From Myxococcota bacterium (GTDB lineage: Bacteria > Myxococcota_A > UBA796 > GCA-2862545), in the NCBI GenBank assembly GCA_039208735.1, contig JBCCQY010000013.1:27889-91888 (forward strand): DNA of 64,000 nt, given 5' to 3'. The notes beneath the pieces were generated by a model that was not told the origin of the DNA, ran no database searches, and was given only the letters and a program-made list of their open reading frames with translations. The position numbers were made by a program, and so were the translations under genes. Of this stretch, positions 39,874 to 63,729 are shown in pieces (within the stretch, counting starts at the first letter, position 1; each line of letters starts with the position of its first letter).

Positions 39874-42800
39874 CTACCGCAGGACGCGCGGCCCGCGCGG
39901 GCCATAAAGGCGCTCTGCCAACAGGCCCAACCACTGGTCGACGGGTTCCGAGGACAGCTGCAACGTGCCCGTGCGAACGCCTTCGAGCAGCCGTGCGCTG
40001 GCTTCGGTGGGCGTGGGGTTCTCCTCCAGGATCTTCAGCAGAACCGCGTGCTCGTGCGAAGCGCCAGTGCGTTCGACCCAGGCGTCCACCGCTGCGGCGA
40101 ACGCGGGGTCAGCGGGGAACGGCCATTCCTCGGAAAGGGGGGGCCCAAGAGCATTCATGGACTGCACCGCAAGTTCCTTCCGGTCCTTGTACGTCATGGA
40201 CTGAAGCGTTTCGGGGAGGATGGGGCGGCCGATCCAAATGTCCATCTGACCCATGCCCACCGGGAACTCGAGACGCTCGGTGAGGGGTTGCACAGGCAGT
40301 GCCCCGACGAATCGAACGGGCACGACCGGGGCGTTGACATGCAACGCCATGTCAATGAACGCTCCGCTCATCTTTTCGACCGGCCTTCGAGCGGCGAGCG
40401 CGCGTGTGCCTTCAACATGCACCATGACCGACTTCCCGCCGCTCGACGTCATGTCGCTGGCGAGGTCTGCGATGATTCCGGGAAGGCTCGCTTTGTCGTC
40501 TCGATCGAAGAACGTGATGACGCGCGGATCGCTGGCGCCCGGGTAGCCAAAGCACAACGCGATCAATAAACCGAGCCAGCTCTCGCGATGCTCGGCCTTG
40601 GCCACGGTGACGGTGTTGACGCCGTGGATGCCGCTCGCCAGCATGCTGAAGAGCAACGACTCAACGCCGACCTGATGGTTGCCGAGGTACAGCAGGCTTC
40701 GGCCGGAAACCTCGGCGTGAGCCGTGGGATCCACCAGGTGGACCCGACGTACGAACCGTCGGATGAGCCCGTAGTAGAGATCTTCGACGGGCCACCGCCC
40801 CAGCCCAAAGTACTGATCCCAGTGCGACTCGATCGAAGCAATGTCGAGGGCCGGGGCCCCACCACGCACCGTGACCCGGCTGGTCTGGCGTTCGACGGCG
40901 ATCGGCCACGATGTGAGGGGTTGTGCGGTGCTGACGGCGTGGCCCTCGGTCCAGCGAACCGTGCTGGGGTGCACTTCCGCCCGTTGGGCCACATGGTCTT
41001 TGACCGCGACTTCGGCCAGTCGATGGGCCGCGTCGTCCGACACGGTGTTGTAGAGATGAGCCACCGTGCCGGGGAGCCAGTCTGCCGCGTGCACGGTCGC
41101 TGCGTCGGTGTGGCTTAAGGCACCGTCGTGGGTCGACAGCGACACACCAGGAACGAACTTCCGATCCCCGAGGAACTGCTGTCGCGCGGCGGGGAGGGCG
41201 TTGCCGATGGGACCCTTAGGCAGCAACACCTCGGTCAATGTCAGCTCGAGCCACACCACACCGTCGTCGCCGCGCGATGTGTCGATCGCCTGTAGCAGGA
41301 TGCGGGGAATTGGACCCACGTTCGTGCGTTCGGCGAAGCCTGCGAATCGGGCTTCGACCCGAATGGGGCTGATCGGAGCAGGGCCAAAGAGGCGCAGCGA
41401 TTCAATGTGCAGGGGGTAACCGGCGAGTCCCGGGTCAATCTCATCGGACCATCGGTGCAGCGCATCGTGAGGGATGGCGTGCAGAACGGCGTCGAGCAAA
41501 CCTTGGTGGAGGGTCCCCGGCGGAACCGAGCCCTTTCTTGGATCGAGGTGCGCGGTGGCGCCCCCTGCCCCCAAGGACCAGGCGGTGAGGTAGTGGTACG
41601 CGGGTCCGTGGAACAACGTGCCCGCCGCGTAGGGGTCGGGCATCGGGGCGGCGTCACGCAGCGGAGCCCACGGAGCCGGAGCTTCGGGGTACTCGGGGGC
41701 GATTCGGACGGTTCCGGACGCGGCCGCCTCGAACCGAGAAAGCGATGGATTTCGCGCTTCTCGCCAGGTTTCGAGTGTGACCTCGACCTCGGTCCCGTGG
41801 GTGCTCGCGGGATGGATGGACCCCACGACCGGACGAATGCGCGCTGGAACATCCACCTTGACCCAACCGTGGACGGCGAGGTCTCGGACTTCGACCACGT
41901 GGCCGGGGACCACGGCGCGAGCCGCTCCGGCGAGACGGTCTGCCATCGACATGGCCGGCAGGGCCGGGATGGTCCACGTCGGACGGTGATCCCCCACGAA
42001 ACCGGTGGGGCTCAAGGTCTCTTCGGGGCCTGGTCCCGGGGTTGCGGTGGGGGTTTCCGTGGGGGGAGCCGAGTGTTCGGTCAGCCCATCGTCCACGATG
42101 CGCATGCCGAAGTCGATGCCCTCGTAGATCCGCAGGTCGTCGACCCACAAGTAGGCGTGCGCCTTCGCGAAGGGCCCGTGGTCATCGCGGCCCACCTCGA
42201 TGATCTCGACTTCGCAGCGAATGACCTGGTTTTCGGGCACGACTTGACCCCGGTACTTCCAGGCGTGGGTCTGCCCCATCATCAGCGGTTCGAACCGCGG
42301 TCGCTCGATGCCCGCATGCATGTCGGTTTCGATCATGAAGAACTGCAGCAGCTGAACCATGGCCTCAAGGCCAAGGGAGCCCGGCTGCACAGGGTCGGTG
42401 TAGAAGTGGGCCTTGAAGAACCACTCGGCGGGGTTCACGTCCTTTTCGGAGCGCAACCGACCGAGGCCCTTTTCGCCGCCGGTCGGCCAGAATCCGGTGA
42501 CCCGGTCAAGCATGAGCAACATGGGTTTCGGAAGCCGTAGGGCGCCCGCACAGTAGCGGGCCGGACGGCTCGTCAGGTCGACGAAGAAGTCGCTTGGCGC
42601 GTGCAACGCAGCGCGCTCCTCTTCGGTGGGCACCAGGCCAATCTGGTTGGCGAGGGCGGCTCCAGGGAAGAACCCAAACACCGTCTTCAGGTCATAAACC
42701 AGCGTGTCGCCAAGGAAGCACTGCACCTCGAACGCTTCGATGATCATGCCGCCTGACTGGGAGATCGACGTGATCTTGGCCTTGGTGTTGAGGGTGCCGC

Positions 42801-45800
42801 TCTGTGGCAGGCACTCGACATGCCACGTGGCGGTGCCGTCCAGGTTCCGGAAGTACAAATCCTTGTCTGTCGTCAGCGCAGAACCGACGAAGCAAGCGAT
42901 CCATCCGCAGGGCTGCAAGGCGGCTTCCAACAGCACGCAAAACGGCATGGTGGGATGGCCATTCTCGCGGAAATACCAGGCATCCATCGGGATGTCGTAC
43001 TCGAGTTCGATGTTCGTCCCGAGCTGCATGCCTCCGATGGGCCCGTCGATCTTCGTGACCCGAGACATGAAGTGGTACGGGTCGCCCGGCAGCCGTGCGC
43101 AGTGTCGTCCTTCGTCGAACGGTTTGTAGAGGGGTCCAAACGCATCGGACGGTTTGCCCCAGGCACACGACACGAGCGAGGCGTAGTCGAATGGGAACCC
43201 GTCGACAACGGCCACCGGTTTGGGCTCGACATAGTTCTCGAGCACTTCAGGACGTGTGGTGAGCGGCCAGTCCGGACGGAGTCGGACCCCCACGCGGCGT
43301 GCCCAAAAGGCCTTCAAGCCGTCGATGGTGCACAGAAAGTCGGCGAAGACCATCGGCCATGGGCCATCGTGGACCTCTTCGATGAAAATCTCGTAGACGA
43401 GGAGTCCCGCTTCCGGGGTCACCTGGCCGCGGCAGCGCAGGTCGTAGGGAAGGTCAGGGACCGGTTCGAACGTCCATCCGTCGTGCCGAACGGTGTAGCC
43501 GAGGGCCGCCATATAGAAGCCCACCGCTTGCAGGCACGCCTCAAACATCATCGTGCCCGGCATGCAAGGGTCGTCTTTGAAGTGGCCGTCGAAGAACCAG
43601 TCTTCAGGGGTGATGTCCTGTTCGGCGCGCAGGTATCCGCGTCCCCACGGTCCCCCGCGAGGGTCGAACACCGGCACGCGGGTCCAGAAGTTCAGGGGAC
43701 TCGGAGCGATCCGTGGTGACCGTACGTGGGTCTGAAGTCGTTCGAACCCAGGCCCGAAGGTCGTGAATCCGTCGCCATGGGCGAAGGCCAACACCTGCGC
43801 TTCGTCGAACGAGCTTCGCGTGCACGGAATCTTGGGCGGATCGAGACGGGCTTTGGGGTTGTATTCTCCCGTTTCCGGCGTCCAGAGAATGCCGCCGGAC
43901 TCCGCGAGTTCCTGGTCCGTGAAAAACCCGGCCTGGCCCTCCCGCACCACGAGGCGAGGCTGTCCGTCGTTATCGGTGCAGTCGTAGTGGAAGAAAAAGA
44001 TCGAGGTTTCACCAACGTTGGCGTGGCCATCGATGTGAATCTCGTAGTGCAGCGTGTCGCCCGGTCGAGGCAGACCGCCGTGGTAGGTGAGCTGGCAGCC
44101 CAACAAGCGATAGACGCGTTCGCCCCGGTTGCGGAAGTCCACGCCGAGCCAGCTGATGAGCAGCAAGTCGGCCTGACCTGCCTCGATCATCGCACCGGCG
44201 GGCATCGTGCCGTCGTGCAGGTACCAGGCGTCCGGGGTGACGTCGGTTTCCGTCCAAATCACCCCGGTGGTCATGGAGCCGGGTTCGGCATCGACGCCGG
44301 TCACGCGGTCGGCGAGGAGCAGCGGCGGCGTTGGCATCCGCACCTGACGTGGGAAGTCGTCTTGGACCGCGAACAGGGGGCCGAAGACTTCTGAAATCTT
44401 CTCCGAGGCGAGCCGCTCAAGTTGGGCCCGGGAGAACTTGGGCCCCGGTCGAACCTCGCTTGTGGAGGCGACAGGCGCAGGAGGGGGAGGCGGCCGTTTG
44501 ACGACGGTCTTGGTCGGCACCGGCGGCGCAACCGGGGCCGGGACCGCGGGCGTCGGAGACGGAAGCGGAGCGGGGAGCGCGCCGGAGGACCGCATCCGAA
44601 TCGCCTGCGCGAGCCGCTGCGTGGTGCGTTGCTGCAGGGCGAGAAACCGGCCATGGGCCTCCTGCTGCTGATGCAGGAATTGCGCATGAGCCGCCGACAG
44701 TTGCCGATGGAGGTCGGCCAGCGCCTGGAGGTGGGCCGGGCTGGCGTTTTGTGTCGCAGCCTCTGTGGGCGGCGGAGCGATGGGCGGAGGCGGGGCCGGC
44801 GCAGGCAGAGGGGCGGGCGCTTCGGGAACCCGAGGGGTCGTGGGGGCCTTCGAGGGTGCGGGAGTCGGGGCGTCTCCGGCGGTGATCCGGGGGAGCGCGG
44901 GTGCGGTCGGCATCTGATCGAACTCGGGCTCGAAGCCGGTCGGTGCATGGGTGCCCCAACTTGGCACCGTCAGCTCGGCCGAGGAGGCGGTGGGAGGCAG
45001 CGGAGGCGCGACGGGCATGGTGGCATCGTGCACGGTCGCAAACTCCACGACGATGGGCTTGGGGTGAGCCGGAAACCGAATCGGACGTTCGGGAGCCGGG
45101 GGGCGAGGAGGCAAGGCGACCGGCGTGTCCGCCGCCACCACCGCCATTTGTGCCATGCCGCCCATCAGGTTTTGGCTGGTGACCAAGGCGCGCCGAGGGT
45201 CGGTGACCTCGGGATGACCCGCAGGAACCTGGCCTTGGGCCACCGAGACCACCGCGGCGGCGACGTGCAGCAGTGACCGGGCGGCGTGAGCCTTTCCGAG
45301 TCGTTCGCCTAGATCGAGCGCCCCCGCTGCGTCACCGAGCTGAAGCGTCGATGGGGTGTCGGTCGACCCTTCCGTGAGCAGGGCATAGATGGGGTCGCCA
45401 TCGGCGCGCGCCGCGCTCGCGGTCTTGAGTCGCAGCACCACCGCCGCATCTCCCGTTGCGCCGGCGATGCCCATTGCCTTGAGTGCGGCTTCGTGCACCG
45501 GCTCCGCGGACAGATCGACGGCACCCGCCAAGGCGGTGTCGATCTCCTTGGCGCGAAGCATCCGCATCGCGGTTTGGAGTGCCACCAGCCCCGAGTGCTC
45601 CTCGGCGGCAATGGTGAAGCCAGGCCCCCCCAAGTCGAGCTGCGAACCAATCCGGTTGGCGGGGATGTTGGGCATGTTGCCCACCACGCCCGCACTCTCG
45701 AGGACCGACACGATGCGGTCTTGGGCGTTTTGAATCCAGTCTGCGTCGCGGTCCTTGGCCCAGTCGGCCACCCGCCACCGGGCGCCGTAGCGACACACTT

Positions 45801-47415
45801 CAGGGTCACTCTGAGAGCCAATGAGCACCGCGGTGCGGTCGGGAGGCAGCGTGGCGCCACGGGTGGCCTGCATGGCCGCATCCAGCACCAGCAGCTGTTG
45901 CGCGAGGGTTTGCTGCAGATCGCGAGGGGGGAACTTGAGTTCCGACAGCGACAGCACAATCTCGTCGACAACGCTTCGCGGAGGCGGGCCCTGGGGGGTC
46001 ACCGTGGGACGAACCAACTCTTCGGCCAAGGCCTGAACGTCGGACACGCCGGGGGCTCGGACGCCAATCCCCACTACGGCGATGGGTTCGTTCGGCAGGG
46101 CCGCCGCAGGAAAATGTGGCGTGCGCTGGGGCTCGTACTCTTCGAGGATCACATGGGCGTTGTTGCCCCCGAACCCGAACGCATTGACCGCCGCGACTCG
46201 GGGGCCGTCGCTGATCCAGGGTTCAGCCTGGGTGAGGAGTCGAAACGGCGTATCCGCGAGGGCGGGGTTCGGCGTGTCGACGTGCAGAGTGGGTGGTCGA
46301 ATGCCTGCTTCAAACGCACCCAACACCTTCATCATGCCCGCAGCACCCGCCGCCGTGATGAGATGTCCCAGGTTGGACTTCAGGGAGCCAAGCGGCAAGT
46401 CCTCGTGGTTGCCAAACACGTTGGCCAACGTGCGGATCTCGGTGGCGTCGCCCACCGTCGTCCCCGTCGCGTGGCATTCGACCATCGACAGCCGAGCGGG
46501 ATCCACCCCAGACTGGGCCCAGGCGTTGTGGAGGGCGCGAGATTGCCCTTTGGAATCGGGTGCGAGGAGTCCTCGACCTCGGCCATCGTTCGACAGACCA
46601 ATGCCTCGAATGACGCCCAAAATCCGGTCGTTGGCGGCTTCGGCATCGGCCAACCGCTTCAGCGCGAAGAATGCGGCCCCTTCGGCGGGCACCAGCCCGT
46701 CTGCATTTGCATGGAAGGGGCGGGACTGTCCGGTGCGGCTCATCGCGCCCAAGGCACAGAACCCGACGTGGATGAACAGGTCGTCGGAGCGGCACACGGC
46801 TCCCGCCAACGCAAGATCGACGGATCGATCGTGCAGTTGGTCGCAGGCCAGCTTGACCGCGTACAGGCTCGAGGCACATGCCGCATCGAGCGCGAACGCA
46901 GGCCCCCCGAGGCCCAGTTCGTCGGCCAACAACAATGCCGGAAGCCCACTCATGAACCGGTTGCGAGGATCCACCGCGGGCCGGTTGAACCACACGTGCT
47001 CGGCGAACTGCGACATCGCCCGTGAGGGGAACGACAGGTTGCCCATGATCGCGGCGACGCGGTCGCTCGTTCCTTGGTGTCCGGCTTGACGCAGGGCCTC
47101 TCGCCCACCGTGAAGCACCCAGTGGAACAGCGGATCGAGTCGCAGGAGGTCCGAGGCGTCCCGTCGGAACGGATCGCGCTGCACCACCTGCTCGAAGTCG
47201 AATCCCTGGACGTACCCCCCGCGGTCCGAGAAGGCGCGGTCGGCACTGTGATCAGGGTCGTCGGTCATCGACAACGAAGGAGGAAGGCCCCACCGGCCCG
47301 CGGGGACGGAGGAGACGAGGTCCCTGCCCTCCACAACGGCGTCCCAGAGGGCTCGTGGACTGGACGCACCGGGCAGGATGCAGCTCTGCCCGACGATAGC
47401 GATGGGTTCGAACAT
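39874..47415 (-). CDS. pfa3: PUFA synthase subunit Pfa3/PfaC-like: KS-CLF-(FabA-like pseudo-DH/DH)x2-PKS-DH-AGPAT
   Basis: KS 'DAACASS/ECHATGT/NLGHL'; CLF 'AAEEHSG'; FabA-type DH 'FFDGHFKDDPCMPG' and 'FFKAHFYTDPVQPG'; 'DHRPTWTIPALP'; PlsC-like 'GNHQVGVES' and 'HVEGTR'. Confidence 0.9.
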   Translation of the reverse strand: MFEPIAIVGQSCILPGASSPRALWDAVVEGRDLVSSVPAGRWGLPPSLSMTDDPDHSADRAFSDRGGYVQGFDFEQVVQRDPFRRDASDLLRLDPLFHWVLHGGREALRQAGHQGTSDRVAAIMGNLSFPSRAMSQFAEHVWFNRPAVDPRNRFMSGLPALLLADELGLGGPAFALDAACASSLYAVKLACDQLHDRSVDLALAGAVCRSDDLFIHVGFCALGAMSRTGQSRPFHANADGLVPAEGAAFFALKRLADAEAANDRILGVIRGIGLSNDGRGRGLLAPDSKGQSRALHNAWAQSGVDPARLSMVECHATGTTVGDATEIRTLANVFGNHEDLPLGSLKSNLGHLITAAGAAGMMKVLGAFEAGIRPPTLHVDTPNPALADTPFRLLTQAEPWISDGPRVAAVNAFGFGGNNAHVILEEYEPQRTPHFPAAALPNEPIAVVGIGVRAPGVSDVQALAEELVRPTVTPQGPPPRSVVDEIVLSLSELKFPPRDLQQTLAQQLLVLDAAMQATRGATLPPDRTAVLIGSQSDPEVCRYGARWRVADWAKDRDADWIQNAQDRIVSVLESAGVVGNMPNIPANRIGSQLDLGGPGFTIAAEEHSGLVALQTAMRMLRAKEIDTALAGAVDLSAEPVHEAALKAMGIAGATGDAAVVLRLKTASAARADGDPIYALLTEGSTDTPSTLQLGDAAGALDLGERLGKAHAARSLLHVAAAVVSVAQGQVPAGHPEVTDPRRALVTSQNLMGGMAQMAVVAADTPVALPPRPPAPERPIRFPAHPKPIVVEFATVHDATMPVAPPLPPTASSAELTVPSWGTHAPTGFEPEFDQMPTAPALPRITAGDAPTPAPSKAPTTPRVPEAPAPLPAPAPPPPIAPPPTEAATQNASPAHLQALADLHRQLSAAHAQFLHQQQEAHGRFLALQQRTTQRLAQAIRMRSSGALPAPLPSPTPAVPAPVAPPVPTKTVVKRPPPPPAPVASTSEVRPGPKFSRAQLERLASEKISEVFGPLFAVQDDFPRQVRMPTPPLLLADRVTGVDAEPGSMTTGVIWTETDVTPDAWYLHDGTMPAGAMIEAGQADLLLISWLGVDFRNRGERVYRLLGCQLTYHGGLPRPGDTLHYEIHIDGHANVGETSIFFFHYDCTDNDGQPRLVVREGQAGFFTDQELAESGGILWTPETGEYNPKARLDPPKIPCTRSSFDEAQVLAFAHGDGFTTFGPGFERLQTHVRSPRIAPSPLNFWTRVPVFDPRGGPWGRGYLRAEQDITPEDWFFDGHFKDDPCMPGTMMFEACLQAVGFYMAALGYTVRHDGWTFEPVPDLPYDLRCRGQVTPEAGLLVYEIFIEEVHDGPWPMVFADFLCTIDGLKAFWARRVGVRLRPDWPLTTRPEVLENYVEPKPVAVVDGFPFDYASLVSCAWGKPSDAFGPLYKPFDEGRHCARLPGDPYHFMSRVTKIDGPIGGMQLGTNIELEYDIPMDAWYFRENGHPTMPFCVLLEAALQPCGWIACFVGSALTTDKDLYFRNLDGTATWHVECLPQSGTLNTKAKITSISQSGGMIIEAFEVQCFLGDTLVYDLKTVFGFFPGAALANQIGLVPTEEERAALHAPSDFFVDLTSRPARYCAGALRLPKPMLLMLDRVTGFWPTGGEKGLGRLRSEKDVNPAEWFFKAHFYTDPVQPGSLGLEAMVQLLQFFMIETDMHAGIERPRFEPLMMGQTHAWKYRGQVVPENQVIRCEVEIIEVGRDDHGPFAKAHAYLWVDDLRIYEGIDFGMRIVDDGLTEHSAPPTETPTATPGPGPEETLSPTGFVGDHRPTWTIPALPAMSMADRLAGAARAVVPGHVVEVRDLAVHGWVKVDVPARIRPVVGSIHPASTHGTEVEVTLETWREARNPSLSRFEAAASGTVRIAPEYPEAPAPWAPLRDAAPMPDPYAAGTLFHGPAYHYLTAWSLGAGGATAHLDPRKGSVPPGTLHQGLLDAVLHAIPHDALHRWSDEIDPGLAGYPLHIESLRLFGPAPISPIRVEARFAGFAERTNVGPIPRILLQAIDTSRGDDGVVWLELTLTEVLLPKGPIGNALPAARQQFLGDRKFVPGVSLSTHDGALSHTDAATVHAADWLPGTVAHLYNTVSDDAAHRLAEVAVKDHVAQRAEVHPSTVRWTEGHAVSTAQPLTSWPIAVERQTSRVTVRGGAPALDIASIESHWDQYFGLGRWPVEDLYYGLIRRFVRRVHLVDPTAHAEVSGRSLLYLGNHQVGVESLLFSMLASGIHGVNTVTVAKAEHRESWLGLLIALCFGYPGASDPRVITFFDRDDKASLPGIIADLASDMTSSGGKSVMVHVEGTRALAARRPVEKMSGAFIDMALHVNAPVVPVRFVGALPVQPLTERLEFPVGMGQMDIWIGRPILPETLQSMTYKDRKELAVQSMNALGPPLSEEWPFPADPAFAAAVDAWVERTGASHEHAVLLKILEENPTPTEASARLLEGVRTGTLQLSSEPVDQWLGLLAERLYGPRGPRVLR

Positions 47416-47432
47416 GTCGTCCTCGGGGCGGG

Positions 47433-53400: not shown

Positions 53401-54164
53401 AGCGCAGGCGTCTTGCTGAAGCACATGTACATCGAGATGTCGTTCATGGTGTCGGCCCCGCCTGTGATGACGAGGTCGGACTGGCCGAGCCACAGCTCAT
53501 TGGCTCCCATGGAAACGGCGGAGAACGAGCTTGCACAGGCGGCGTCGGTCACGCAGTTGGTGCCGCCAATGTCGAGCCGGTTCGCGATGCGCCCCGCCAC
53601 GACGTTGCCGAGCAGACCGGGGAATGTTGACTCCTGCCATGGCACATACTCGCCGGCGATCTTGTCGGCTGCAATCTGGACTTCTTCTTCGTCGTAGCCC
53701 AGCTCACGAAGGGCCTTGACCCACACCGGACGCTGCAGCCGGTTGGCCATGGTGAGCATCAATTCCTGGGCCCCTGTGACACCCAGGATGCAACTCACTT
53801 TGTCCTTGTCGAGGTCCGCCAGGCCGTCCCCACACGCGTCTTCCAACACCTTCTTGGCCGTGATGAGGGCCAACAATTGGGTGGTGTCGGTGGCGGGAAC
53901 GATGGACGGGGGAACGCCCCACTCGAGGGGATCGAACTCAATGTCGGAAAGGAAGCCGCCGCGCTTGCCGTAAGTCTTGTCAGGCGCGCTCGGGTCCGGG
54001 TCGTAGTAATCCTCGATCAGCCAGTGACTATCGGGCACATCGCCCAACAGATCCTTTCCTGTGAAGATGTCGTGCCAAAATCCAGTCGCGTCGACGCTAC
54101 CGGGAAAAATGGCGCTGACACCGACGATGGCGATCGGGCATTGTTTCGGATCGTGCACGCTCAT
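47433..54164 (-). CDS. pfa2: PUFA synthase subunit Pfa2/PfaA: KS-MAT-ACPx4-KR-DH
   Basis: 'DAACASS', 'EAHGTGT', 'QIGHTKAAAG'; MAT 'GHSYG' and 'AFHS'; four 'LGIDSIKRVEIL'; KR 'GGAKGVT...YAMAN'; DH 'DHQVRDTPVVP'. Confidence 0.95.
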   Translation of the reverse strand: MSVHDPKQCPIAIVGVSAIFPGSVDATGFWHDIFTGKDLLGDVPDSHWLIEDYYDPDPSAPDKTYGKRGGFLSDIEFDPLEWGVPPSIVPATDTTQLLALITAKKVLEDACGDGLADLDKDKVSCILGVTGAQELMLTMANRLQRPVWVKALRELGYDEEEVQIAADKIAGEYVPWQESTFPGLLGNVVAGRIANRLDIGGTNCVTDAACASSFSAVSMGANELWLGQSDLVITGGADTMNDISMYMCFSKTPALSKTGECAPFSDRADGTLLGEGLGMVALKRLPDAVRDGDKIYAVIKGIGSSSDGRSKSVYAPVSNGQAKAIRRAYAQAGYDADTVELVEAHGTGTKAGDAAEFEGLRMAFGASGRTDAQWCALGTVKSQIGHTKAAAGAAGLFKVVMALHNRVLPPTLKIERPNPKLDLENSPFYLSTSSRPWVRPSTHPRRGAISSFGFGGSNFHITVEEYTGPERAPRLRVMPSELVVLAAASPQALISDARAMAAKATHPDFLAYAAYQSQQTFDATKPARMAIVAKSSEELAQRLHRIADKIAEKPQKPIEIPTGMYYHHGSQPGPLAFVFPGQGSQYINMGADLAMAFDAMADGLDAASDLDLADRPIHEVIFPIPAWDTAGTKALEDTLRATEWAQPAIGTVSLAMLRLVRELGLEPTTVGGHSYGEVTALGAAGALSEADVLRVARKRGELMAEAAQTDGAMIAVPLPIEQVRPYVDAVPNAVVANHNAPKQVVVSGPTQAVDQVEKALLDAGIEPKRLKVATAFHSPVVSASVEPFSQFLQTVDVQVSRIPVLHNAEAAPYPAAPGAIRERLGTAIAKPVRFVEQIEAMYASGVRTFVEVGPGHVLTNLIGEILGDRPHLAVPLDRRKKNTVTTFFQALARLSVAGHALAFSTLWKGQRIPDDPHDRRKPKLSLKLNGANFDKPYPPKGGADALPKPNPVRTGPAKAREPEPQVVEKVVERRVEVPVATPGAAPMPAASTAGGSDPWILAFQHAQRSTVEAHQAYQRAMAETHDQFLRTVEASLQNLQGLLTGTPGPAPTFEAPTFQAPTLPPVVAAPPVQPTPAPVAPPAAPPAPAPAPTPAPAAPSLDLEQLLLNVVADKTGYPADMLEMEMTLEADLGIDSIKRVEILSAVREAAPGLPEVDTAAMAQLQTLGEVRDHLREHLPASPAGTAAPRPAAAAPPAGVDIEGLLLNVVADKTGYPADMLEMGMALEADLGIDSIKRVEILSAVREAAPDLPEVDTAAMAQLQTLGEVRDYLRANLPAGGAAPVVASPSAPATAAPARDLEGLLLNVVSDKTGYPADMLEMSMALEADLGIDSIKRVEILSAVRDAAPELPEVDTAAMAQLQTLGEVRDYLRANLPGNAPAAPAPTATPAAPAPAAGLDLNALLLEVVADKTGYPADMLEMSMALEADLGIDSIKRVEILSAVREKAPGLPEVDTAAMAKLETLGQVVDHLQGFTDTPAATPAPTAAPAPPTPALGRWRLDAVEAAPIGLTTPGLRPGATIEVMPRSDQANAVVAAFAREGLAASAVDAPGADVDVLIYVGGWQPSDPFAAQRQGFAAARTVAQRFGAPDAHEPLFVTVQDTGGDFGLSGSEHAWSAGLTGLVKTAVQEWPKTFGKALDIPVSGRGLDQAAEAVVHELLAGGPDLEVGRPLDGRRLVLRSVADDAAPAPAARRDQSVIVASGGAKGVTAHTLIALARAQGGRFVLLGRTALEDEPGFLRGLTDEPALKKALLDDARSRNERPTPAELGRKVGKWLGIRQIRDTMARIEAAGGQARYAAVDVTDAHALGALLDDVRGSWGAVTGLVHGAGVLADKRIADKTMEQFDRVFDTKVRGLQALLAATANDPLDTLLFFSSVAGRCGNQGQADYAMANEVLAKVAAYEQTRRGDGVVVRALQWGPWEGGMVTPQLKAHFEAQGVPLIGLDAGAAMLVAEVTDHRRQTEVVLGGEPRMAPLADPGADGSEVLRLRLRAHRRTHPYLADHQVRDTPVVPVVLVLEWFARAGQVFRSHLALQSFRDVKVTRGISLTGFDNGGDWFDVTVREESNGTGSVLAVELTDLAGTTHYVALADMVPELAPAPPSPDTPRFDPVSDQTIYDGTILFHGQTFQVIDALEGASDEGIVARLTRNAEAAWGHEPWQTDPAALDGGLQLALLYSARMLGGASLPMGVETMRTFRSGPPDGPLRAVLRGETRGRDKTITDIVFTDEVGNVVHELRGVQAIRLP
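49750..50870 (-). repeat. Four near-identical tandem ACP-coding repeats separated by Pro/Ala linkers (boundaries approximate)
   Basis: Repeated 'ttgatggagtcgatgccga' on the + strand near 49860, 50160, 50460 and 50755. Confidence 0.9.
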
Positions 54165-54175
54165 CGGGACTCCTG

Positions 54176-55783
54176 TCAGGCGTCGAGCGGACGGGGGGAG
54201 AAGGTGAAGGCTTGGCTGGGAATGGCCACGCCGTGGGCCCGCAGCTGATGGGCGCGCGTAAGGGTCGCAGCGCCTTCGAGCAGGTTGCGGGCGATTTGAA
54301 CGGTGGTGCGGTTTTCGGCTGGCTCGAGGAAGCTGCCTTTGACCCAGGCGTTGAAGGCGCCCATCGCAGGCCCACACCAGATTTGGTAATCGAGGTTGCG
54401 GCCGCCTTCTCCGGCGATGGCCCACTTGCTGGATAGCCCCAGGTACCATCGAAAGACCAGGGCCATCCGATGTTTGGGCTCGCGATGGGCACGTTCGACT
54501 TCGTGCGGATCGCGCACATTGAAGAAGGATTCGCAGTTTTGCCAGATGACCTCGAGGTCATCCTTGAAGATCTCTTTTTCGAGCTTCTGCCGAACTTCGG
54601 TAGGGATCGACTCGATGCCGTCGTGGGCCCGGTAGACCTCGTACAGTCGCTTTGCTCGGGCCCCGAACATCGTGCCGCGCTGTAGCACCTGGACTTCAAC
54701 GCCGAGTTCGAACATGTCCGCGGCGGGCGCCATGACCACGTCCGCAAGTCCGGCCGAACACAGGAGTCGCTTGCCTTGGGGCGATAAACCACTTTCGACC
54801 GCAGCCTGGTTGACCGAACCGGTGAGAACGAAGGCCGCACCAAGCTGGAAGGCGGCTGCGACGGCCGATGGGGTGCCAATTCCCCCCGCCGCTCCAATCC
54901 GAATGGGGCGCTTGAACCCGTGCTGGGCCACCATCTCGTCACGCACCGACAAGATGGTCGGGAACAGCGCGGTGAGGGTCTGGTTGTCGGTGTGTCCGCC
55001 CGAGTCGGCTTCGACGGTCACGTCCTCCGCCACCGGCAGCTCCCGGGCGAGCGCGGCTTCTTCGGATGTGAGATGCCCGTCTCGGACCAGTTGCTGCAGG
55101 AGGTCTTCGGGCGCGGGAGCCAGGAACCGCCGCGCGACCTCCGGACGACTGATCTTCGCAAAGACGTAGTTCTCGCGGTGGATCGAACCGTCCGGACGTC
55201 GGCGTACCCCCGCGTAGGCGTAGCGAACGATCATGGGGGTGAGGGCCATGTAGGCCGAGGCGCTGACCCGACGAACCCCACGCTTGAGGTACAACTCGAC
55301 GGTTCCCATCTCGACTTTGGGCTCGTTCGGAGCGTGGATGAGGTTGCTTCCGAACGGCAACGTGGTGCCGGCCAGGCCTGCTTCGATGCGATCGAGTCCC
55401 TCGGAGATGCGGTCGACGGTGAGGCCCGCGGCGCCGAAGAATCCGAGCATGCCGGCCTTCGCCATGGCGACCACCATGTCGGAGGTGGCAATGCCGTTGG
55501 CCATCGCCCCCGCCACGTAGGGGAAGCGGATGCCGTGTACCTCGTTGAACGAGCGGTCGCCGAGCCACTCTGGGTACAGCGCAGGGAGGTTCGCCACGAG
55601 GGGAAAGGTCGGCGCTCCATTGACTTCGTCATCGCGAAGGACCGCCCCGCCCCGAGCCACGCCGAAGGGGCCTTCGGGAGCACTCCGCACGACGTACACG
55701 GGCTCCCGGAAATGGCGCACCGCTTCGCGAAGTTCGGTCGGGGTAAAGGCGGGCCGATGGCCCCCGGGCTTCCACAAGGTCAT
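54176..55783 (-). CDS. pfa1: PUFA synthase enoyl reductase Pfa1/PfaD
   Basis: 'GAMANGI', 'AKISRPEVA', 'EADSGGHTDN', 'APAADMFE.GV.VQVL', 'DYQIWCGPAMGAFN'. Confidence 0.95.
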   Translation of the reverse strand: MTLWKPGGHRPAFTPTELREAVRHFREPVYVVRSAPEGPFGVARGGAVLRDDEVNGAPTFPLVANLPALYPEWLGDRSFNEVHGIRFPYVAGAMANGIATSDMVVAMAKAGMLGFFGAAGLTVDRISEGLDRIEAGLAGTTLPFGSNLIHAPNEPKVEMGTVELYLKRGVRRVSASAYMALTPMIVRYAYAGVRRRPDGSIHRENYVFAKISRPEVARRFLAPAPEDLLQQLVRDGHLTSEEAALARELPVAEDVTVEADSGGHTDNQTLTALFPTILSVRDEMVAQHGFKRPIRIGAAGGIGTPSAVAAAFQLGAAFVLTGSVNQAAVESGLSPQGKRLLCSAGLADVVMAPAADMFELGVEVQVLQRGTMFGARAKRLYEVYRAHDGIESIPTEVRQKLEKEIFKDDLEVIWQNCESFFNVRDPHEVERAHREPKHRMALVFRWYLGLSSKWAIAGEGGRNLDYQIWCGPAMGAFNAWVKGSFLEPAENRTTVQIARNLLEGAATLTRAHQLRAHGVAIPSQAFTFSPRPLDA

Positions 55784-55864
55784 CGGTCTTGCCACCGCTT
55801 TTCGCTGCTCGCCAGGGGCACACAAGCTCCCACCAGCGGCGCACCCGTCGGGGACGGGCTCGTA

Positions 55865-55975
55865 GGGTTAATGGAGGTTTGCGCGCTTGTAATGTCGGGA
55901 TTCATGGTCGTCGACCGGGCCGGGTCGCCGCGGCGTCCAGGGAAGGTGGTCCGGGTCGAGGCGAGGCATTAACCC
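55865..55975. promoter_or_regulatory. Divergent pfa/ole promoter region containing the inverted 9-mer GGGTTAATG...CATTAACCC
   Basis: GGGTTAATG at 55865-55873 and its reverse complement at 55967-55975. Confidence 0.4.
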
Positions 55976-56029
55976 CGCCGGGTGGTTTTGGCGGCGTGGG
56001 TGCCGCGGAGGGGGCGTGTGGTGGTCGCG

Positions 56030-56914
56030 ATGCCCGAAGACGCGGCGGGGCTGTTTCCGTGGACATCCAAGGCGTTGCCCGTTCCCGCGGGTGAGCTGCG
56101 CTATGTCGATGCAGGTGAGGGCGACCCGATCCTCGCCGTACACGGCAATCCTACCTGGAGCTTCTACTGGCGGGCCCTGATTCGGCACTACGAGGGCCGG
56201 AACCGAGTGGTGGTGCCGGATCACATCGGGTGTGGGCGGTCCGACAAGCCGCAAGACTGGCCTTACCGACTCGAGGATCACGTTGACAATCTCGTGCGCC
56301 TCGTCGAGCACCTCGACCTGCAGCGCATCACGGTCGTGGTCCATGACTGGGGCGGTGCGATTGGTCTGGGCATGGCCGGCCGGTTGCCCGACCGCATCGC
56401 TCGGCTGGTGATCACCAACACCGCAGCATTCCGGTCCCAGGCCATTCCTTTGTCGATCGCGAGCTGTCGCATTCCCGGGTTTGGAGCCCTCGCCGTCCGC
56501 GGGTTCAACGCGTTTGCTCGGGCCGCGACCTTCCGCACGACGGTGCGTCCGCTTGCTCCGGCGGTGAAGGCGGGCCTACTCTGGCCGTACGGGAATTGGG
56601 CGGACCGCATTGCGACTCTCCGGTTCGTCGAGGATATTCCCCTCGCTCCGTCCCATCCCAGCTACGACACCCTCGTCGGCGTTGAGGACAACCTCGCGAA
56701 GCTGCAGGCCAAGCCAACGCTCATCGCCTGGGGAGACCAGGATTGGTGCTTCACCCCAGCGTTCCGTGAGGAGTTCCAACGTCGCTTCCCCGAGGCTGAG
56801 GTCGAAGCCTATGCGGATGCGGCGCACTACCTCATTGAGGATGTTCCCGAGCGTCTGCTCGCCCGCATGGATCGATTCCTGGAGGCGCATCCGCTGGACA
56901 GGGAAGGCGCATGA
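56030..56914 (+). CDS. oleB: OleB beta-lactone decarboxylase (haloalkane dehalogenase-like hydrolase)
   Basis: 'HGNPTWSFYWR', 'PDHIGCG.SDKP', 'HDWGG', 'RFVEDIPL', 'HYLIED'; adjacent to oleC and oleD. Confidence 0.88.
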   Translation: MPEDAAGLFPWTSKALPVPAGELRYVDAGEGDPILAVHGNPTWSFYWRALIRHYEGRNRVVVPDHIGCGRSDKPQDWPYRLEDHVDNLVRLVEHLDLQRITVVVHDWGGAIGLGMAGRLPDRIARLVITNTAAFRSQAIPLSIASCRIPGFGALAVRGFNAFARAATFRTTVRPLAPAVKAGLLWPYGNWADRIATLRFVEDIPLAPSHPSYDTLVGVEDNLAKLQAKPTLIAWGDQDWCFTPAFREEFQRRFPEAEVEAYADAAHYLIEDVPERLLARMDRFLEAHPLDREGA

Positions 56915-58554
56915 ACTTCGCGGCTCGGGTCTACGCCCATGGTGCAGAACGTCCTTACCAGCGGGCCTTGGTGGCTCCCGGGCCGCGCCAAGGAGACCAG
57001 CCGTCTTGGCGTCACATGACCTTCGGGCGGCTTACCGACCGAGCCAAGCGCCTTGCCGCCGGGTTCATCAAGCGGGGCCTGACGGAAGGCGACCGAGTGA
57101 TGATGCTCGTGCCGGCGGGGTTCGAGTTCTTCGAAGTCAGCCTCGCCCTTTGGCAAATTGGAGCCGTGCCGGTCCTCATCGACCCGGGCATGGGACTTTC
57201 AGGCTTTCTCTCCTGTACGGCGCAAATCCGGCCTCGCGTGCTCATTGGCATTCCGCGGGGAATGCTTCTTGCCGCCGTCCGGTCGGGACCGTTCCGCTCC
57301 GTCGAGGACCGCATCACGGTGGGGGGCTCAACCTGGTTTTGGGGAGGCGCGACCCTCGATGCGTGCCGATCCGAGTCTCCGCGAACCGAACTGGCTCCCG
57401 CCGATGTCGACACCGAAGCTGGGGTGTTGTTTACATCCGGCTCGACGGGGCCTGCCAAGGGGGTGCGCTACACCCACGGGATGTTCGGGACGCAGGCCGA
57501 GCGAATCCAGGCGATGTACGACATCGTTCCCGGAAATCTTGATGTGAGCTGCTTTCTGCCGTTTGCCATGTTTTCGGTGGCCATGGGTGTGACCTGTGTG
57601 TTGCCCGACATGGACTTCGCCAAGCCCGCGACGGCGGCGCCTCGCGCCATCCTCGAAGCGGTGGAAGAGCATGGAGCAAGCCAGCTTGTAGCGAGTCCTG
57701 CGGTGCTCGTCCGGATGGCGCCTTGGCTTGCCGAACGTGGTCAAGAAATGCCCAGTCTTGACCGCATTCTGACGTTTGGGGCCCCGATCCCCCGGCCCCT
57801 CCATGAGGCCTTCCGCACGGTGTTGCGGGAGGGGGCTGCCATCCACACGCCGTACGGGGCGACCGAGGCGCTGCCCGTCGCCACCATCGATGGCCACACC
57901 ATTCTTGCCGAGACGGGCGCACGATCGGCCTCGGGTGAGGGCACCTGTGTGGGGCGGCCAGACGAGAGCATCGAGGTGCGCGTGTTGGCGATTACCGATG
58001 AGCCGCTGGCCACCATGGCCGAGGCGACGGTGTTGCCGCCCGGCGAGGTCGGAGAGATTACGGTGCGCGGCGTGCAGGTGTCGCGGGAGTACAAGGATCG
58101 GCCGGATGCGAACGCCGCTTCGAAGGTTCAGGACGGCGACACCTTCTGGCATCGCATGGGGGACCTTGGCTACCTCGACGATCAAGGACGGCTCTGGTTC
58201 TGCGGGCGCAAGAGCCACCGGGTGACCCTCGCCGATGGGCGCCTGCGGTTTCCCGTTCCCGTCGAGGGCATCTTCAACGAACATCCCGCGGTGCGGCGAA
58301 GCGCGCTTGTCGGGGTGGACGGCACGGCGGTGCTGGTCGTGGAGTTGAACGCGGGCGTCACCGAGACGCCCAAATTGCTGGATGAAATTGGAGCGTTGGG
58401 AAGAGGGCATGAGGTCGCATCGGATGTCACCCGCTTGCTCGTCCACCCTGGTTTTCCCGTCGACAGGCGGCACAACGCAAAGATTCACCGGCCCGAGATC
58501 GCCAAGTGGGCTGCAGGGCGCGCCGGCCACCCGGTGCGGCGAGGTGACGCATGA
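56911..58554 (+). CDS. oleC: OleC beta-lactone synthetase (AMP-dependent ligase)
   Basis: 'GAVPVLIDPGMG', 'FTSGSTGPAKG', 'TPYGATEALP', 'WHRMGD', 'FPVDRRHNAKI'. Confidence 0.9.
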   Translation: MNFAARVYAHGAERPYQRALVAPGPRQGDQPSWRHMTFGRLTDRAKRLAAGFIKRGLTEGDRVMMLVPAGFEFFEVSLALWQIGAVPVLIDPGMGLSGFLSCTAQIRPRVLIGIPRGMLLAAVRSGPFRSVEDRITVGGSTWFWGGATLDACRSESPRTELAPADVDTEAGVLFTSGSTGPAKGVRYTHGMFGTQAERIQAMYDIVPGNLDVSCFLPFAMFSVAMGVTCVLPDMDFAKPATAAPRAILEAVEEHGASQLVASPAVLVRMAPWLAERGQEMPSLDRILTFGAPIPRPLHEAFRTVLREGAAIHTPYGATEALPVATIDGHTILAETGARSASGEGTCVGRPDESIEVRVLAITDEPLATMAEATVLPPGEVGEITVRGVQVSREYKDRPDANAASKVQDGDTFWHRMGDLGYLDDQGRLWFCGRKSHRVTLADGRLRFPVPVEGIFNEHPAVRRSALVGVDGTAVLVVELNAGVTETPKLLDEIGALGRGHEVASDVTRLLVHPGFPVDRRHNAKIHRPEIAKWAAGRAGHPVRRGDA

Positions 58555-59636
58555 TGCGGATTCTGGTGACCGGGGGCGGAGGGTTCCTCGGCAAGGCCAT
58601 CACCCGCCAGTTGCTCGACAAGGGCTACGCCGTGCGGGTGCTGGGACGCAACCGCTACCCCGAGGTCGAAGAAATGGGCGCCGAGGGGGTGGTGTGCGAT
58701 CTGTCGGTGGGTCGTCGCCTCGATGAAGCGCTCGTTGGGGTAGACGCGGTGATCCACACGGCGGCTCGGGCCGGCATGTGGGGCGCTTACGAGGACTACT
58801 ACCAGGCCAACGTCGTGGCCACGGAACGCTTGCTCGAGGCCATTCAGCGGGCGGCGGTGCCTCGGCTGGTGTACACCTCGTCGCCCTCGGTGACCTTTCA
58901 AGGACGCGATGAGGAGAACGTTTCCGAGAACGACGCGCGGTACCCCGACACGTTTCCATTCTACTACCCAGAGACGAAGGCCTTGGCGGAAGCCATCGTG
59001 CTCGCGGCGAATGGTCCGGCGCTGGCCACCACCTCGATTCGGCCTCACCTCATCTACGGACCGGGCGACCCACATCTGTTGCCTCGGCTCGTGGCCCGTC
59101 ATCAGGCTGGTCGCTTGAGGGTGATCGGCGATGGCAAGAACAAGGTGGCGTTGACCTACATCGACAACGCCGCCCAGGCTCACGTGCAGGCGCTCGAACA
59201 GCTCGCGCCCGACTCGCCCAATGCGGGCAAGCCGTACTTCGTGACCGACGAAGACCCGGTGCTGGTTTGGGATTGGCTCAACGAGGTGTTCCAAGAGGCG
59301 GGGCTCGGGCGCATCGAGGGTCAGGTCAGCCGCTGGATCGCCTTGCCCCTTGCCTCGGCCGTCGAGGGATTTTGGTGGGCATTGGCGCTCAAGAGTGAGC
59401 CCCCCATCACCAAGTTTACGGTGCAGCAGATCAGCTCATCGCACTGGTACGACCTTTCGAACGCCAAGCGAGACTTCGGCTATGCGCCGAGCATTTCGGG
59501 CGAGGAAGGCAAGTTGCGCACCATCGCTTGGCTTAAGGAAGCCCATCCGCCGCCACCCCCGCCGCCGCCCGAACCCGCGCCCGCCCCCAAAGCGGCGGCT
59601 GACGCAGATGTGGACAACCCCGGTTCGGCACCATAG
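58551..59636 (+). CDS. oleD: OleD 2-alkyl-3-oxoalkanoate reductase (extended SDR)
   Basis: 'VTGGGGFLG', 'YTSSPSV', 'YPETK' (YxxxK), 'RPHLIYGPGD'. Confidence 0.88.
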   Translation: MMRILVTGGGGFLGKAITRQLLDKGYAVRVLGRNRYPEVEEMGAEGVVCDLSVGRRLDEALVGVDAVIHTAARAGMWGAYEDYYQANVVATERLLEAIQRAAVPRLVYTSSPSVTFQGRDEENVSENDARYPDTFPFYYPETKALAEAIVLAANGPALATTSIRPHLIYGPGDPHLLPRLVARHQAGRLRVIGDGKNKVALTYIDNAAQAHVQALEQLAPDSPNAGKPYFVTDEDPVLVWDWLNEVFQEAGLGRIEGQVSRWIALPLASAVEGFWWALALKSEPPITKFTVQQISSSHWYDLSNAKRDFGYAPSISGEEGKLRTIAWLKEAHPPPPPPPPEPAPAPKAAADADVDNPGSAP

Positions 59637-59673
59637 CAACGCGGGCACACTTCGAAAGCGCGGGGGCGTAGAG

Positions 59674-60678
59674 ATGGGTAGGCTGCGCGCCGCCATTACG
59701 GGGGTTGGGGGATGGGTTCCTGAGAAGGTGCTCAGCAACCAAGACCTCGAGAAGATGGTCGACACGAACGACGAATGGATCGTGAGCCGAACGGGCATCC
59801 GTGAACGGCGGATTCTCGAGGGTGAAGACCAAGGGGTTTCGGTCATCGGCATTCATGCGATGCGGGAGTTGCTGGCCAAGACGGGCACCGATCCGATGGA
59901 CATCGACCTCGTGATCTTCGCGACCGTCACCAAAGACTTCGTGTTTCCGGCGACCGCCAACCTCATCTCCGATGCGGTCGGGGCGAAGAACGCGTTTGGC
60001 TTCGACGTTGAGGCGGCCTGTTCGGGGTTCCTCTACGCGCTTGCCTCGGGTGCTCAGTTCATCGAGAGCGGTCGCTACAAGAAGGTCGTGGTCATCGGAG
60101 CCGACAAGATGTCGGCCATTCTCGACTACGAAGACCGCGCCACCTGCATCATCTTTGGCGATGGTGGAGGAGCGGTGTTGCTCGAGCCCACCGAAGACGA
60201 TGTGGGAGTCGGCGATTTCGTGATGCGGTCGGATGGTGACGGTGCCCGTTTTCTCAACATGCCGGCCGGAGGCAGCCGCAGACCTGCCTCCCATGCCACG
60301 GTCGACGCCCGCGAACACTACGTGAAGCAGGAAGGCAAAACCGTCTTCAAGTTCGCGGTCAAGAACATGGCCGACATCAGTGTGCAGCTGTTGCAGCGCA
60401 ACAACCTCACCGCCAACGACGTCACGTGGCTTGTGCCGCACCAAGCCAACAAGCGCATCATCGACGGCACGGCGCAGCGGCTCGAGATTCCGCCCGAGCG
60501 CGTGATGTTGAACATCGATCGCTACGGCAACACCACCAGCGGTACGTTGCCCCTGTGCTTGTGGGACTATGAATCCCAGCTTCGTCGAGGCGACAAGCTC
60601 GTCCTCGCGGCCTTTGGGGGTGGCTTCACCTGGGGCGCCATGGTGGTCGACTGGGCCTACGACGGCAGCGAACGCTGA
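59674..60678 (+). CDS. fabH: Beta-ketoacyl-ACP synthase III
   Basis: 'DTNDEWI..RTGIRERR', 'AACSGF', 'FGDG', 'VPHQAN', 'YGNT', 'FGGGFTWG'. Confidence 0.92.
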   Translation: MGRLRAAITGVGGWVPEKVLSNQDLEKMVDTNDEWIVSRTGIRERRILEGEDQGVSVIGIHAMRELLAKTGTDPMDIDLVIFATVTKDFVFPATANLISDAVGAKNAFGFDVEAACSGFLYALASGAQFIESGRYKKVVVIGADKMSAILDYEDRATCIIFGDGGGAVLLEPTEDDVGVGDFVMRSDGDGARFLNMPAGGSRRPASHATVDAREHYVKQEGKTVFKFAVKNMADISVQLLQRNNLTANDVTWLVPHQANKRIIDGTAQRLEIPPERVMLNIDRYGNTTSGTLPLCLWDYESQLRRGDKLVLAAFGGGFTWGAMVVDWAYDGSER

Positions 60679-62280: not shown

Positions 62281-62281
62281 T

Positions 62282-63721: not shown

Positions 63722-63729
63722 GGGGCCTC

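What the first reader, a model, noticed from the sequence alone, without database searches (positions are those of the whole stretch)
39874..60678. PUFA synthase divergently coupled to oleBCD with FabH but no OleA: candidate polyunsaturated hydrocarbon and phospholipid locus
Seen: pfa1-pfa2-pfa3 (gaps of 11 and 17 bp) run leftward and oleB-oleC-oleD-fabH (4-bp overlaps, then a 37-bp gap) run rightward from one ~250-bp intergenic region. Known: OleA condenses two acyl chains head-to-head, OleD reduces, OleC forms a beta-lactone and OleB decarboxylates it; in Shewanella, Pfa-derived chains feed OleABCD to make a C31 polyene. Here no OleA is present, and Pfa3 carries its own AGPAT. Inference: one locus may split PUFA-ACP between phospholipid acylation and polyene or beta-lactone synthesis, with the condensation done by FabH, a Pfa KS, or an oleA encoded elsewhere.
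Basis: partly seen in the sequence, partly recalled or inferred. Interest (0 to 1): 0.85.

Follow-up and report, generated by a model that had tools for sequence, protein, structure and literature searches.

The report
Split olefin pathway beside PUFA synthase
A polyunsaturated-fatty-acid synthase sits back to back with three of the four genes of a known hydrocarbon pathway; the "missing" fourth gene, oleA, lies intact elsewhere in the same genome, so this is likely a rearranged copy of a known pathway, and the neighbouring fabH is likely a passenger and not a stand-in.

Summary
The gene layout is real: pfa1-pfa2-pfa3 (Pfa3 ending in AGPAT) runs leftward, oleB-oleC-oleD-fabH rightward, and no oleA is in the window. 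The surprise does not hold. The assembly has exactly one OleA, on contig C260: over the PRK09258 cut-off, aligned end to end with the solved OleA structures, with the OleA glutamate and Cys/His/Asn, and under purifying selection. The adjacent FabH is a canonical FabH, about 70% identical to Cytophagales FabH, with Phe where OleA has its essential Glu. It lies beside oleD in 1 of 47 relatives' oleC loci (the sister genome) and 0 of 80 wider loci. Three other relatives also have oleBCD without adjacent oleA, one OleA elsewhere and no linked fabH. Relatives carry oleABCD-pfa1-pfa2-pfa3(AGPAT) as one block. Best reading: a type L (Sorangium-like, AT-less) PUFA synthase whose ACP-bound chains likely go both to phospholipid through AGPAT and, through the unlinked OleA and OleD/C/B, to a long polyunsaturated olefin. 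Pfa-ole coupling is published (Shewanella, Geobacter; proposed for type L). New here is only the mosaic arrangement. No product was measured.

The parts
39874..47415 (-). pfa3: KS-CLF-(no AT)-four FabA-type DH'/DH domains-PKS-type DH-AGPAT, 2513 aa
   Evidence: Pfam KS, 4 FabA stretches, PF01553; KS motifs DAACAS/HATGT, no GxSxG; 54% identical over its full length to a Sorangium Pfa3-type protein, while the AT-bearing record QEP18577.1 has an extra block. CLF and PKS-type DH assigned by position and motif (inferred).
40309..40704 (-). AGPAT domain of Pfa3 (residues 2238-2369), motif NHQVGVE
   Evidence: PF01553; HQxxxE in 102 of 120 homologs listed, identical in the Sorangium protein P0125 and nearly so in QEP18577.1
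47433..54164 (-). pfa2: KS-MAT-4xACP-KR-DH, 2243 aa
   Evidence: TIGR02813 over cut-off; Pfam domains, 4 PP-binding stretches; 4 GIDS motifs, GHSYG
54176..55783 (-). pfa1: PfaD-family enoyl reductase, 535 aa
   Evidence: TIGR02814 642 bits, cut-off 449; only copy in the assembly
55784..56017 (.). divergent intergenic region, too short for an oleA; no sigma-70 consensus found
   Evidence: shared promoter activity not tested
56018..56914 (+). oleB: HLD-like alpha/beta hydrolase, predicted beta-lactone decarboxylase
   Evidence: HLD families; subfamily III-type pentad N40/D106/W107/D238/H266 counted from ATG 56030 (compared with PMC10503415); 68% identical to the OleB of a full oleABCD-pfa block (L077)
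56911..58554 (+). oleC: predicted beta-lactone synthetase
   Evidence: PRK09274 over cut-off; next best hits are the two OleC models NF045786/NF045785, below their cut-offs
58551..59636 (+). oleD: predicted 2-alkyl-3-oxoalkanoate reductase
   Evidence: best NCBIfam hits NF042422/NF042423 (OleD), below their cut-offs; GGGGFLG and YPETK motifs
59674..60678 (+). fabH: canonical beta-ketoacyl-ACP synthase III of Cytophagales type, a second FabH in the genome; not an OleA
   Evidence: TIGR00747 and PRK09352 over cut-off, PRK09258 103 bits against cut-off 285; Phe at the OleA Glu column; 19 of 20 organism-named hits are Bacteroidota names at 67-71% identity; tree

Best explanation
The locus holds a myxobacterial-type (type L) PUFA synthase and the oleB-oleC-oleD part of the OleABCD olefin pathway, whose condensing enzyme OleA is encoded on another contig and likely acts in trans, while the adjacent FabH is likely an ordinary fatty-acid-priming enzyme and not an OleA substitute. 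Mechanism, inferred from characterised homologs and not measured: a stand-alone PPTase (C14) activates the four Pfa2 ACPs; Pfa1-3 build a polyunsaturated acyl chain (probably C18 or shorter, as Pfa3 lacks the AT domain like the linoleate-making Sorangium enzyme); the Pfa3 AGPAT transfers finished chains to lysophosphatidic acid; the C260 OleA intercepts ACP-bound chains and condenses two head to head; OleD reduces the beta-keto acid, OleC closes the beta-lactone and OleB decarboxylates it to a long polyunsaturated olefin (two C16 chains would give C31, two C18 chains C35). History, inferred: oleBCD in this genome and G001 came from a lineage with oleABCD-pfa blocks and replaced the genus's own copy; a Cytophagales-type fabH was added behind it.
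For: One OleA in the assembly: PRK09258 372.6 bits over cut-off 285, the only one of 9 matches above it; E 1.4e-70 end to end to the solved OleA-type chains 3row/3fk5/5vxd; E97-P98, C123, H265, N295. One copy each of oleA, oleB, oleC, oleD and pfa1-3. dN/dS against G001 is 0.08-0.18 for pfa1, oleA, oleB, oleC, oleD. G001 keeps the same oleA with the same neighbours, so it is not contamination. G001, G003, G051, G055 also have oleBCD without adjacent oleA and exactly one OleA over cut-off elsewhere; only G001 has the fabH. Close OleA homologs sit directly before pfa1 (G055, G050) or between pfa1 and pfa2 (G032). Nearest OleC/OleD relatives G054 and G049 have oleABCD-pfa1-pfa2, and G049 continues into a Pfa3 with AGPAT. 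OleA draws acyl chains from the Pfa synthase when expressed separately, and deleting ole raises EPA about twofold (PMC6463001, Results read).
Against: No product, expression or binding data. The C260 OleA fails the published strict pattern EPxx[AS]x(14,18)DxxNACL at one position (His for Asn); 20 of 48 OleA rows from this order fail it too, some in full oleABCD operons. It is only 47% identical to the OleA that accompanies the nearest oleBCD (G054), so the pairing is a mosaic. Three relatives (G004, G016, G025) hold this stand-alone OleA besides a second oleA linked to oleB, so it may have a role of its own. Pfa adjacency is not limited to this OleA clade (G014, G058). fabH is also under purifying selection (0.126) and 37 bp behind oleD, so it is not junk. 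oleD scores below the curated OleD cut-offs. The assembly is 92.7% complete, so a second oleA could be missing.
Confidence: 0.62

Rival explanations
1. The C260 OleA and OleBCD make olefins, but from type II fatty acids (possibly iso-branched chains primed by the linked FabH), or from one such chain and one Pfa chain; the Pfa synthase serves mainly phospholipids through AGPAT.
For: fabH is co-oriented 37 bp behind oleD (74 bp in G001) and conserved under selection. Congeners G002 and G004 have pfa1 with no ole genes upstream. Xanthomonas and actinobacterial Ole systems use type II chains (PMC6463001, PMC7158056 passages). A branched-primer preference for Bacteroidota FabH is recalled, not from a call (one search found no paper).
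Against: oleBCD is divergently attached to pfa1, and its nearest homologs sit in oleABCD-pfa blocks. 46 of 47 relatives' oleC loci have no fabH. In Pfa-bearing Shewanella OleA uses only Pfa chains (PMC6463001).
Confidence: 0.2
2. The stand-alone OleA works apart from this OleBCD (for example making a ketone from Pfa chains), or the pathway stops at a beta-lactone; the oleBCD block has another partner or is little used.
For: Stand-alone OleA forms its own subclade (9 rows, 100/100) with a His-for-Asn change and a fixed TetR-like neighbour, and co-exists with a second oleA in G004, G016, G025. P. profundum has oleABCD beside pfa yet made no detectable hydrocarbon (PMC6463001).
Against: oleB keeps its catalytic pentad and is under selection, which argues for decarboxylation. 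It is the only OleA in G000 and G001. OleA swaps between genera still gave olefins (PMC7158056 passages).
Confidence: 0.1
3. The linked FabH primes the Pfa synthase (loads a starter unit on Pfa2 ACP) and so shapes the PUFA and the olefin.
For: Physical linkage only, in G000 and G001.
Against: Orthologous pfa clusters of congeners (77-79% Pfa1 identity) have no such FabH in the genome; heterologous myxobacterial pfa1-3 clusters make PUFAs without it (PMC6731297 passages).
Confidence: 0.05
4. FabH or a Pfa KS performs the head-to-head condensation in place of OleA.
For: FabH and OleA share the thiolase fold (25% identity); fabH follows oleD in the same direction.
Against: Phe at the Glu position that is essential in OleA (PMC7064751 passage) and present in 46 of 47 relatives' OleAs (the other row is truncated). 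About 70% identity to housekeeping Cytophagales FabH. A true OleA is present. No conserved linkage. E. coli FabH lacked the OleA marker activity (PMC7064751).
Confidence: 0.03

Closest known systems
Myxobacterial type L PUFA synthase pfa1-pfa2-pfa3 (Sorangium cellulosum, Aetherobacter, Minicystis; PMC4882568, PMC6731297)
   Same: ER gene first, three genes, C-terminal AGPAT with the same motif, PPTase elsewhere; no AT in Pfa3, as in linoleate-making S. cellulosum.
   Different: Divergently joined to oleBCD; host is an uncultured lineage with flagellar genes; product not measured.
Geobacter bemidjiensis pfaD-A-B-C-oleA-B-C-D-pfaE cluster (type I), C31:9 producer (PMC4882568, PMC3098273)
   Same: Pfa-type synthase physically linked to ole genes.
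   Different: There oleA is in the cluster and all is tandem; here the synthase is type L with AGPAT, orientation is divergent, oleA and the PPTase are unlinked.
Shewanella / Photobacterium Pfa-OleABCD coupling (PMC6463001)
   Same: OleA takes chains from the Pfa synthase and competes with phospholipid PUFA; ole genes may be linked or unlinked; catalytic Cys is residue 123 in both.
   Different: Type A synthase, separate PlsC, intact oleABCD operon; a pfaT thioesterase was not looked for here.
Type L cluster plus ole genes in Plesiocystis pacifica and Nakamurella multipartita (PMC3098273)
   Same: Same synthase type co-occurring with ole genes; olefin supply already proposed in 2011.
   Different: Proposed from genomes only; gene order there was not seen by me.
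Housekeeping FabH of Cytophagales (Roseivirga, Fontibacter, Aquiflexum records)
   Same: 67-71% identity, Cys-His-Asn triad, no OleA Glu.
   Different: Sits behind oleD in a 64% GC host, with host-like GC3 (0.80), as a second FabH.

Membership tests
Type L / myxobacterial PUFA synthase | ER gene (pfa1) upstream of pfa2 and pfa3 | tested here: met
Type L / myxobacterial PUFA synthase | Pfa2 KS-MAT-ACPn-KR-DH | tested here: met
   (four ACPs)
Type L / myxobacterial PUFA synthase | Pfa3 with KS, FabA-type DH pairs and C-terminal AGPAT | tested here: met
Type L / myxobacterial PUFA synthase | PPTase at a separate locus | tested here: met
   one PF01648 match on C14; that it serves Pfa2 is inferred
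Aetherobacter-type EPA/DHA synthase | AT domain in the middle of Pfa3 | tested here: not met
   no PF00698, no GxSxG, gap against QEP18577.1
Type L / myxobacterial PUFA synthase | PUFA production | not testable with these tools
   needs expression and GC-MS
OleABCD olefin pathway | OleA present in the genome with Glu-Pro, Cys, His, Asn | tested here: met
   C260:6064-7080
OleABCD olefin pathway | oleA clustered with oleBCD (criterion used in PMC7158056 and PMC7064751 surveys) | tested here: not met
   oleA is on another contig with unrelated neighbours
OleA (C260 protein) | strict pattern EPxx[AS]x(14,18)DxxNACL (PMC7158056) | tested here: not met
   His in place of Asn; 20 of 48 rows from this order also fail. 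Lowers strict membership by that pattern, not the OleA-like reading
OleABCD olefin pathway | OleB: HLD subfamily III pentad | tested here: met
   N40, D106, W107, D238, H266 (spacing compared with DhmeA in PMC10503415)
OleABCD olefin pathway | OleC: adenylate-forming enzyme of the PRK09274 family | tested here: met
   566 bits over cut-off 478; below the genus-specific OleC cut-offs
OleABCD olefin pathway | OleD: NF042422/NF042423 equivalog | tested here: inconclusive
   best hits by far (373 and 325 bits) but below cut-off 580; relatives' OleDs also fall below
OleABCD olefin pathway | olefin product | not testable with these tools
   needs expression and GC-MS
OleA (window FabH) | general-base Glu followed by Pro | tested here: not met
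   Phe-Pro at that column
OleA (window FabH) | PRK09258 over cut-off | tested here: not met
   103 bits against 285
FabH (KAS III) | TIGR00747 over cut-off; Cys-His-Asn triad with AACS, PHQAN, GNT motifs | tested here: met

The most novel reading that the evidence does not exclude
The horizontally acquired Cytophagales-type FabH was kept behind oleD because it feeds the pathway: it supplies branched or otherwise unusual chains that the stand-alone, His-variant OleA condenses with a Pfa-made polyunsaturated chain, giving an asymmetric branched-polyene membrane hydrocarbon from a three-source mosaic pathway, with an HTH-less TetR-like protein as an OleA partner.
Probability: 0.1. Interest if true: 0.65.

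Novelty: new variant of a known kind. Interest (0 to 1): 0.25.

Why it matters
The claim that would have mattered most, a FabH or PKS ketosynthase replacing OleA, is not supported. What remains is modest: an AT-less, AGPAT-bearing PUFA synthase linked to ole genes offers a compact test of how one acyl-ACP pool is divided between phospholipid and hydrocarbon, and of which olefin a linoleate-type synthase yields; I found no experimental report of that in the searches run. It also shows that ole surveys that require oleA within a few kb of oleBCD miss split pathways, and that pfa and ole genes are near-universal in this uncultured order.

Tried and rejected
OleA-less pathway: rejected. Contaminant oleA: rejected, since contig GC is 0.646 against 0.639 for the genome and G001 has the same gene and neighbours. 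Chimeric assembly of the locus: rejected. oleA remnant between pfa1 and oleB: spacer is under 250 bp, no tblastn hit in that contig. Degenerate AGPAT (Glu in place of the usual Asp): rejected, the same motif is in 102 of 120 homologs. Two metagenome scans for further oleD-fabH loci found nothing, so the gene context of five close FabH relatives (P0002-P0005, P0007) stays unknown. Promoter/terminator scan was at chance level. No RNA holder listed. Searches of earlier findings by place and by relatives gave nothing. No structure or complex prediction was run: family and residue evidence was already decisive. No paper found on Bacteroidota FabH primer choice. pfaT thioesterase was not searched for.
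Full report
Observation. The seven ORFs are intact and spaced as described: pfa1 54176-55783, pfa2 47433-54164 and pfa3 39874-47415 on the minus strand (gaps 11 and 17 bp); oleB, oleC 56911-58554, oleD 58551-59636 and fabH 59674-60678 on the plus strand (4-bp overlaps, then 37 bp). oleB probably starts at GTG 56018, where the sister genome G001 also has a GTG behind a GGAGG. Family scans support each name; only OleD stays below its curated cut-off. The window is G000:C13:27889-91888 of a 9.4-Mb, 288-contig assembly, 92.7% complete and 6.2% contaminated. The nearest named homologs are Myxococcota records, so the host is probably an uncultured Myxococcota lineage. G001 has the same order, and a short contig of run X4, from a study other than the possible source, bridges the oleD-fabH junction.

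The missing OleA. A whole-genome search with PRK09258 gave 9 matches, one over the cut-off: C260:6064-7080, 372.6 bits against 285; the window's FabH scored 98.6. The C260 protein aligns over all 338 residues to the solved chains 3row, 3fk5, 5vxd and others at E about 1e-70 (that these chains are Xanthomonas OleA is recalled, the file names them 3-oxoacyl-ACP synthase III). It has Glu97-Pro98, Cys123, His265 and Asn295. PMC7064751 (passages) states that a Glu at position 117 followed by Pro is essential for the OleA condensation and unique among thiolases; position 97 here equals 117 in the 358-residue chains, which begin 20 residues earlier. Against this reading, the protein has His for Asn in the published pattern DxxNACL (PMC7158056, passage); so do 8 other rows, and 20 of 48 OleA rows from this order fail the strict pattern, some in full operons. 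The gene is native: contig GC 0.646, GC3 0.76, 87% identity and shared neighbours in G001, dN/dS 0.09. The assembly has one copy each of pfa1-3, oleA, oleB, oleC and oleD and one PF01648 PPTase.

The FabH. It passes TIGR00747, matches solved FabH structures best, is 25% identical to the C260 OleA and has Phe at the Glu column. Of 120 homologs listed, 20 carry an organism name: one Myxococcota and 19 Bacteroidota names at 67-71% identity (Roseivirga checked as Cytophagales, the other names assigned from recall). A quick tree places it with these and away from the genome's other FabH on C102 (34-36% identity). Among 60 relatives only G001 has it (81%); all other matches are 42% or less. GC3 is host-like (0.80) and dN/dS 0.126. 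It is therefore a functional, probably transferred, housekeeping-type FabH in a very narrow lineage.

Gene order in relatives. Of 61 genomes searched (G000 included), 49 match OleC, 54 OleA and 57 the PfaD family. I fetched up to 20 kb around oleC for 47 of the 48 relatives with a match (G057 left out, its oleC is split over two contigs): oleA lies in 35 of 47, pfa genes in 7 of 47, fabH in 1 of 47 (G001). Many loci are cut by contig ends. In the best 80 of 582 OleC loci from a partial GTDB scan (12 of 64 parts), oleA lies in 43, true pfa genes in 16, fabH in 0; 16 further loci with a lone KS hit were not counted as pfa. The two sets come from the same database and overlap in part. oleBCD without adjacent oleA recurs in G001, G003, G051 and G055, each with exactly one OleA over cut-off elsewhere; only G001 has the fabH. 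Complete oleABCD-pfa1-pfa2 blocks occur in G054, G049, G045 and in L077, L080, L083, L099; G049's Pfa3 reaches through the AGPAT region.

History. Pfa1 follows the genus (77-87% identity in four congeners), and G002 and G004 have no ole genes upstream of pfa1. OleC and OleD of G000 and G001 group with G054 and G049 of another family (support 100 and 98), OleB with weaker support. AU tests reject one clade for the five congener OleCs (p 1e-32) and for the 30 same-family rows (p 0.011) (groups follow kinship labels but were tested after I had seen the tree; trees are midpoint-rooted, so the direction of transfer is inferred). The C260 OleA belongs to a 9-row subclade of stand-alone copies (100/100) within a 24-row clade (100/98), 7 members of which lie next to pfa genes; pfa adjacency also occurs outside that clade (G014, G058). 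The pathway in G000 is thus a mosaic: native pfa, replaced oleBCD, separate oleA, added fabH.

The synthase. Pfa3 aligns over its full length at 54% to a Sorangium protein, and lacks the block that holds the AT in record QEP18577.1. PMC4882568 (passages) says that AGPAT marks type L pfa3, and that S. cellulosum lacks the AT and makes only linoleic acid. A C18 or shorter PUFA is therefore more likely than EPA or DHA. The AGPAT motif equals that of the Sorangium proteins; the genome has 11 other PF01553 matches, so this domain is not its only acyltransferase.

Mechanism and what is known. Shown here: gene content, intact catalytic residues, selection, gene order. Inferred from homologs: every chemical step. 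PMC6463001 (abstract, introduction and Results read) shows that OleA expressed apart takes chains from the Pfa synthase, lowers EPA about tenfold and gives a 31:8 ketone, and that ole genes may be linked or unlinked. PMC3098273 (passages) found pfa and ole together in 44 of 80 genomes and proposed that type L clusters feed olefins in Plesiocystis and Nakamurella. PMC4882568 (passages) gives the tandem Geobacter cluster and its C31:9. PMC6731297 and PMC10503415 were seen as passages. Gemperlein 2014 and Sukovich 2010 were not seen, only cited in these papers. No supplements were read; those of PMC3098273 and PMC7064751 may list split or type L-linked ole loci. Searches for a myxobacterial pfa-ole or FabH-for-OleA report found none, in an open-access library only.

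Verdict. Real locus, known chemistry, rearranged genes. Best explanation 0.62; type II or mixed substrates 0.20; independent OleA, ketone or lactone 0.10; FabH priming Pfa 0.05; FabH or KS replacing OleA 0.03. Interest 0.25.

Noticed in passing
L015:5397-6038 (G000:C260, minus strand, directly behind oleA): A 213-aa protein with no Pfam match accompanies the stand-alone oleA in all 9 genomes of its subclade and, divergently, in G055. Atlas features and predicted structure resemble TetR-family proteins (TM about 0.6), but the usual helix-turn-helix is not detected; it ends in a conserved PIPLPW-type tail and has dN/dS 0.11. Possibly an acyl-binding partner or regulator of OleA.
   Followed up: partly
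L066, L070, L071 with L164, L165, L048: G004, G025 and G016 carry two OleAs: the stand-alone His-variant and a second one linked to oleB.
   Followed up: partly
L075, L076, L166, L168, L169, L170: In G028, G008, G017, G026, G018 and G033 the block is oleA-oleB-oleD with oleC elsewhere or not found: ole genes split in several ways in this family.
   Followed up: partly
L067:6895-10871 (G032): A Uma2-family gene, oleA and the TetR-like gene sit in the opposite direction between pfa1 and pfa2.
   Followed up: no
L091, L118, L134, L140, L148: Planctomycete loci in which oleA is separated from oleBCD by about 7 kb that includes a lone ketosynthase-like gene; the intervening genes were not examined.
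   Followed up: no
window 28229-33852: Flagellar genes (FHIPEP/FlhA-type, two FlgE/F/G rod proteins, FlgA, FlgH) lie 6 kb from pfa3, in a probable Myxococcota genome.
   Followed up: no
window 60680-63931: A Ser/Thr kinase ends 1 bp from the fabH stop on the opposite strand, followed by a 188-aa ORF and a 549-aa ORF without Pfam matches; order shared with G001.
   Followed up: no
relatives G002-G059: Many relatives carry two to four PfaD-family genes, whereas G000 and G001 have one.
   Followed up: no
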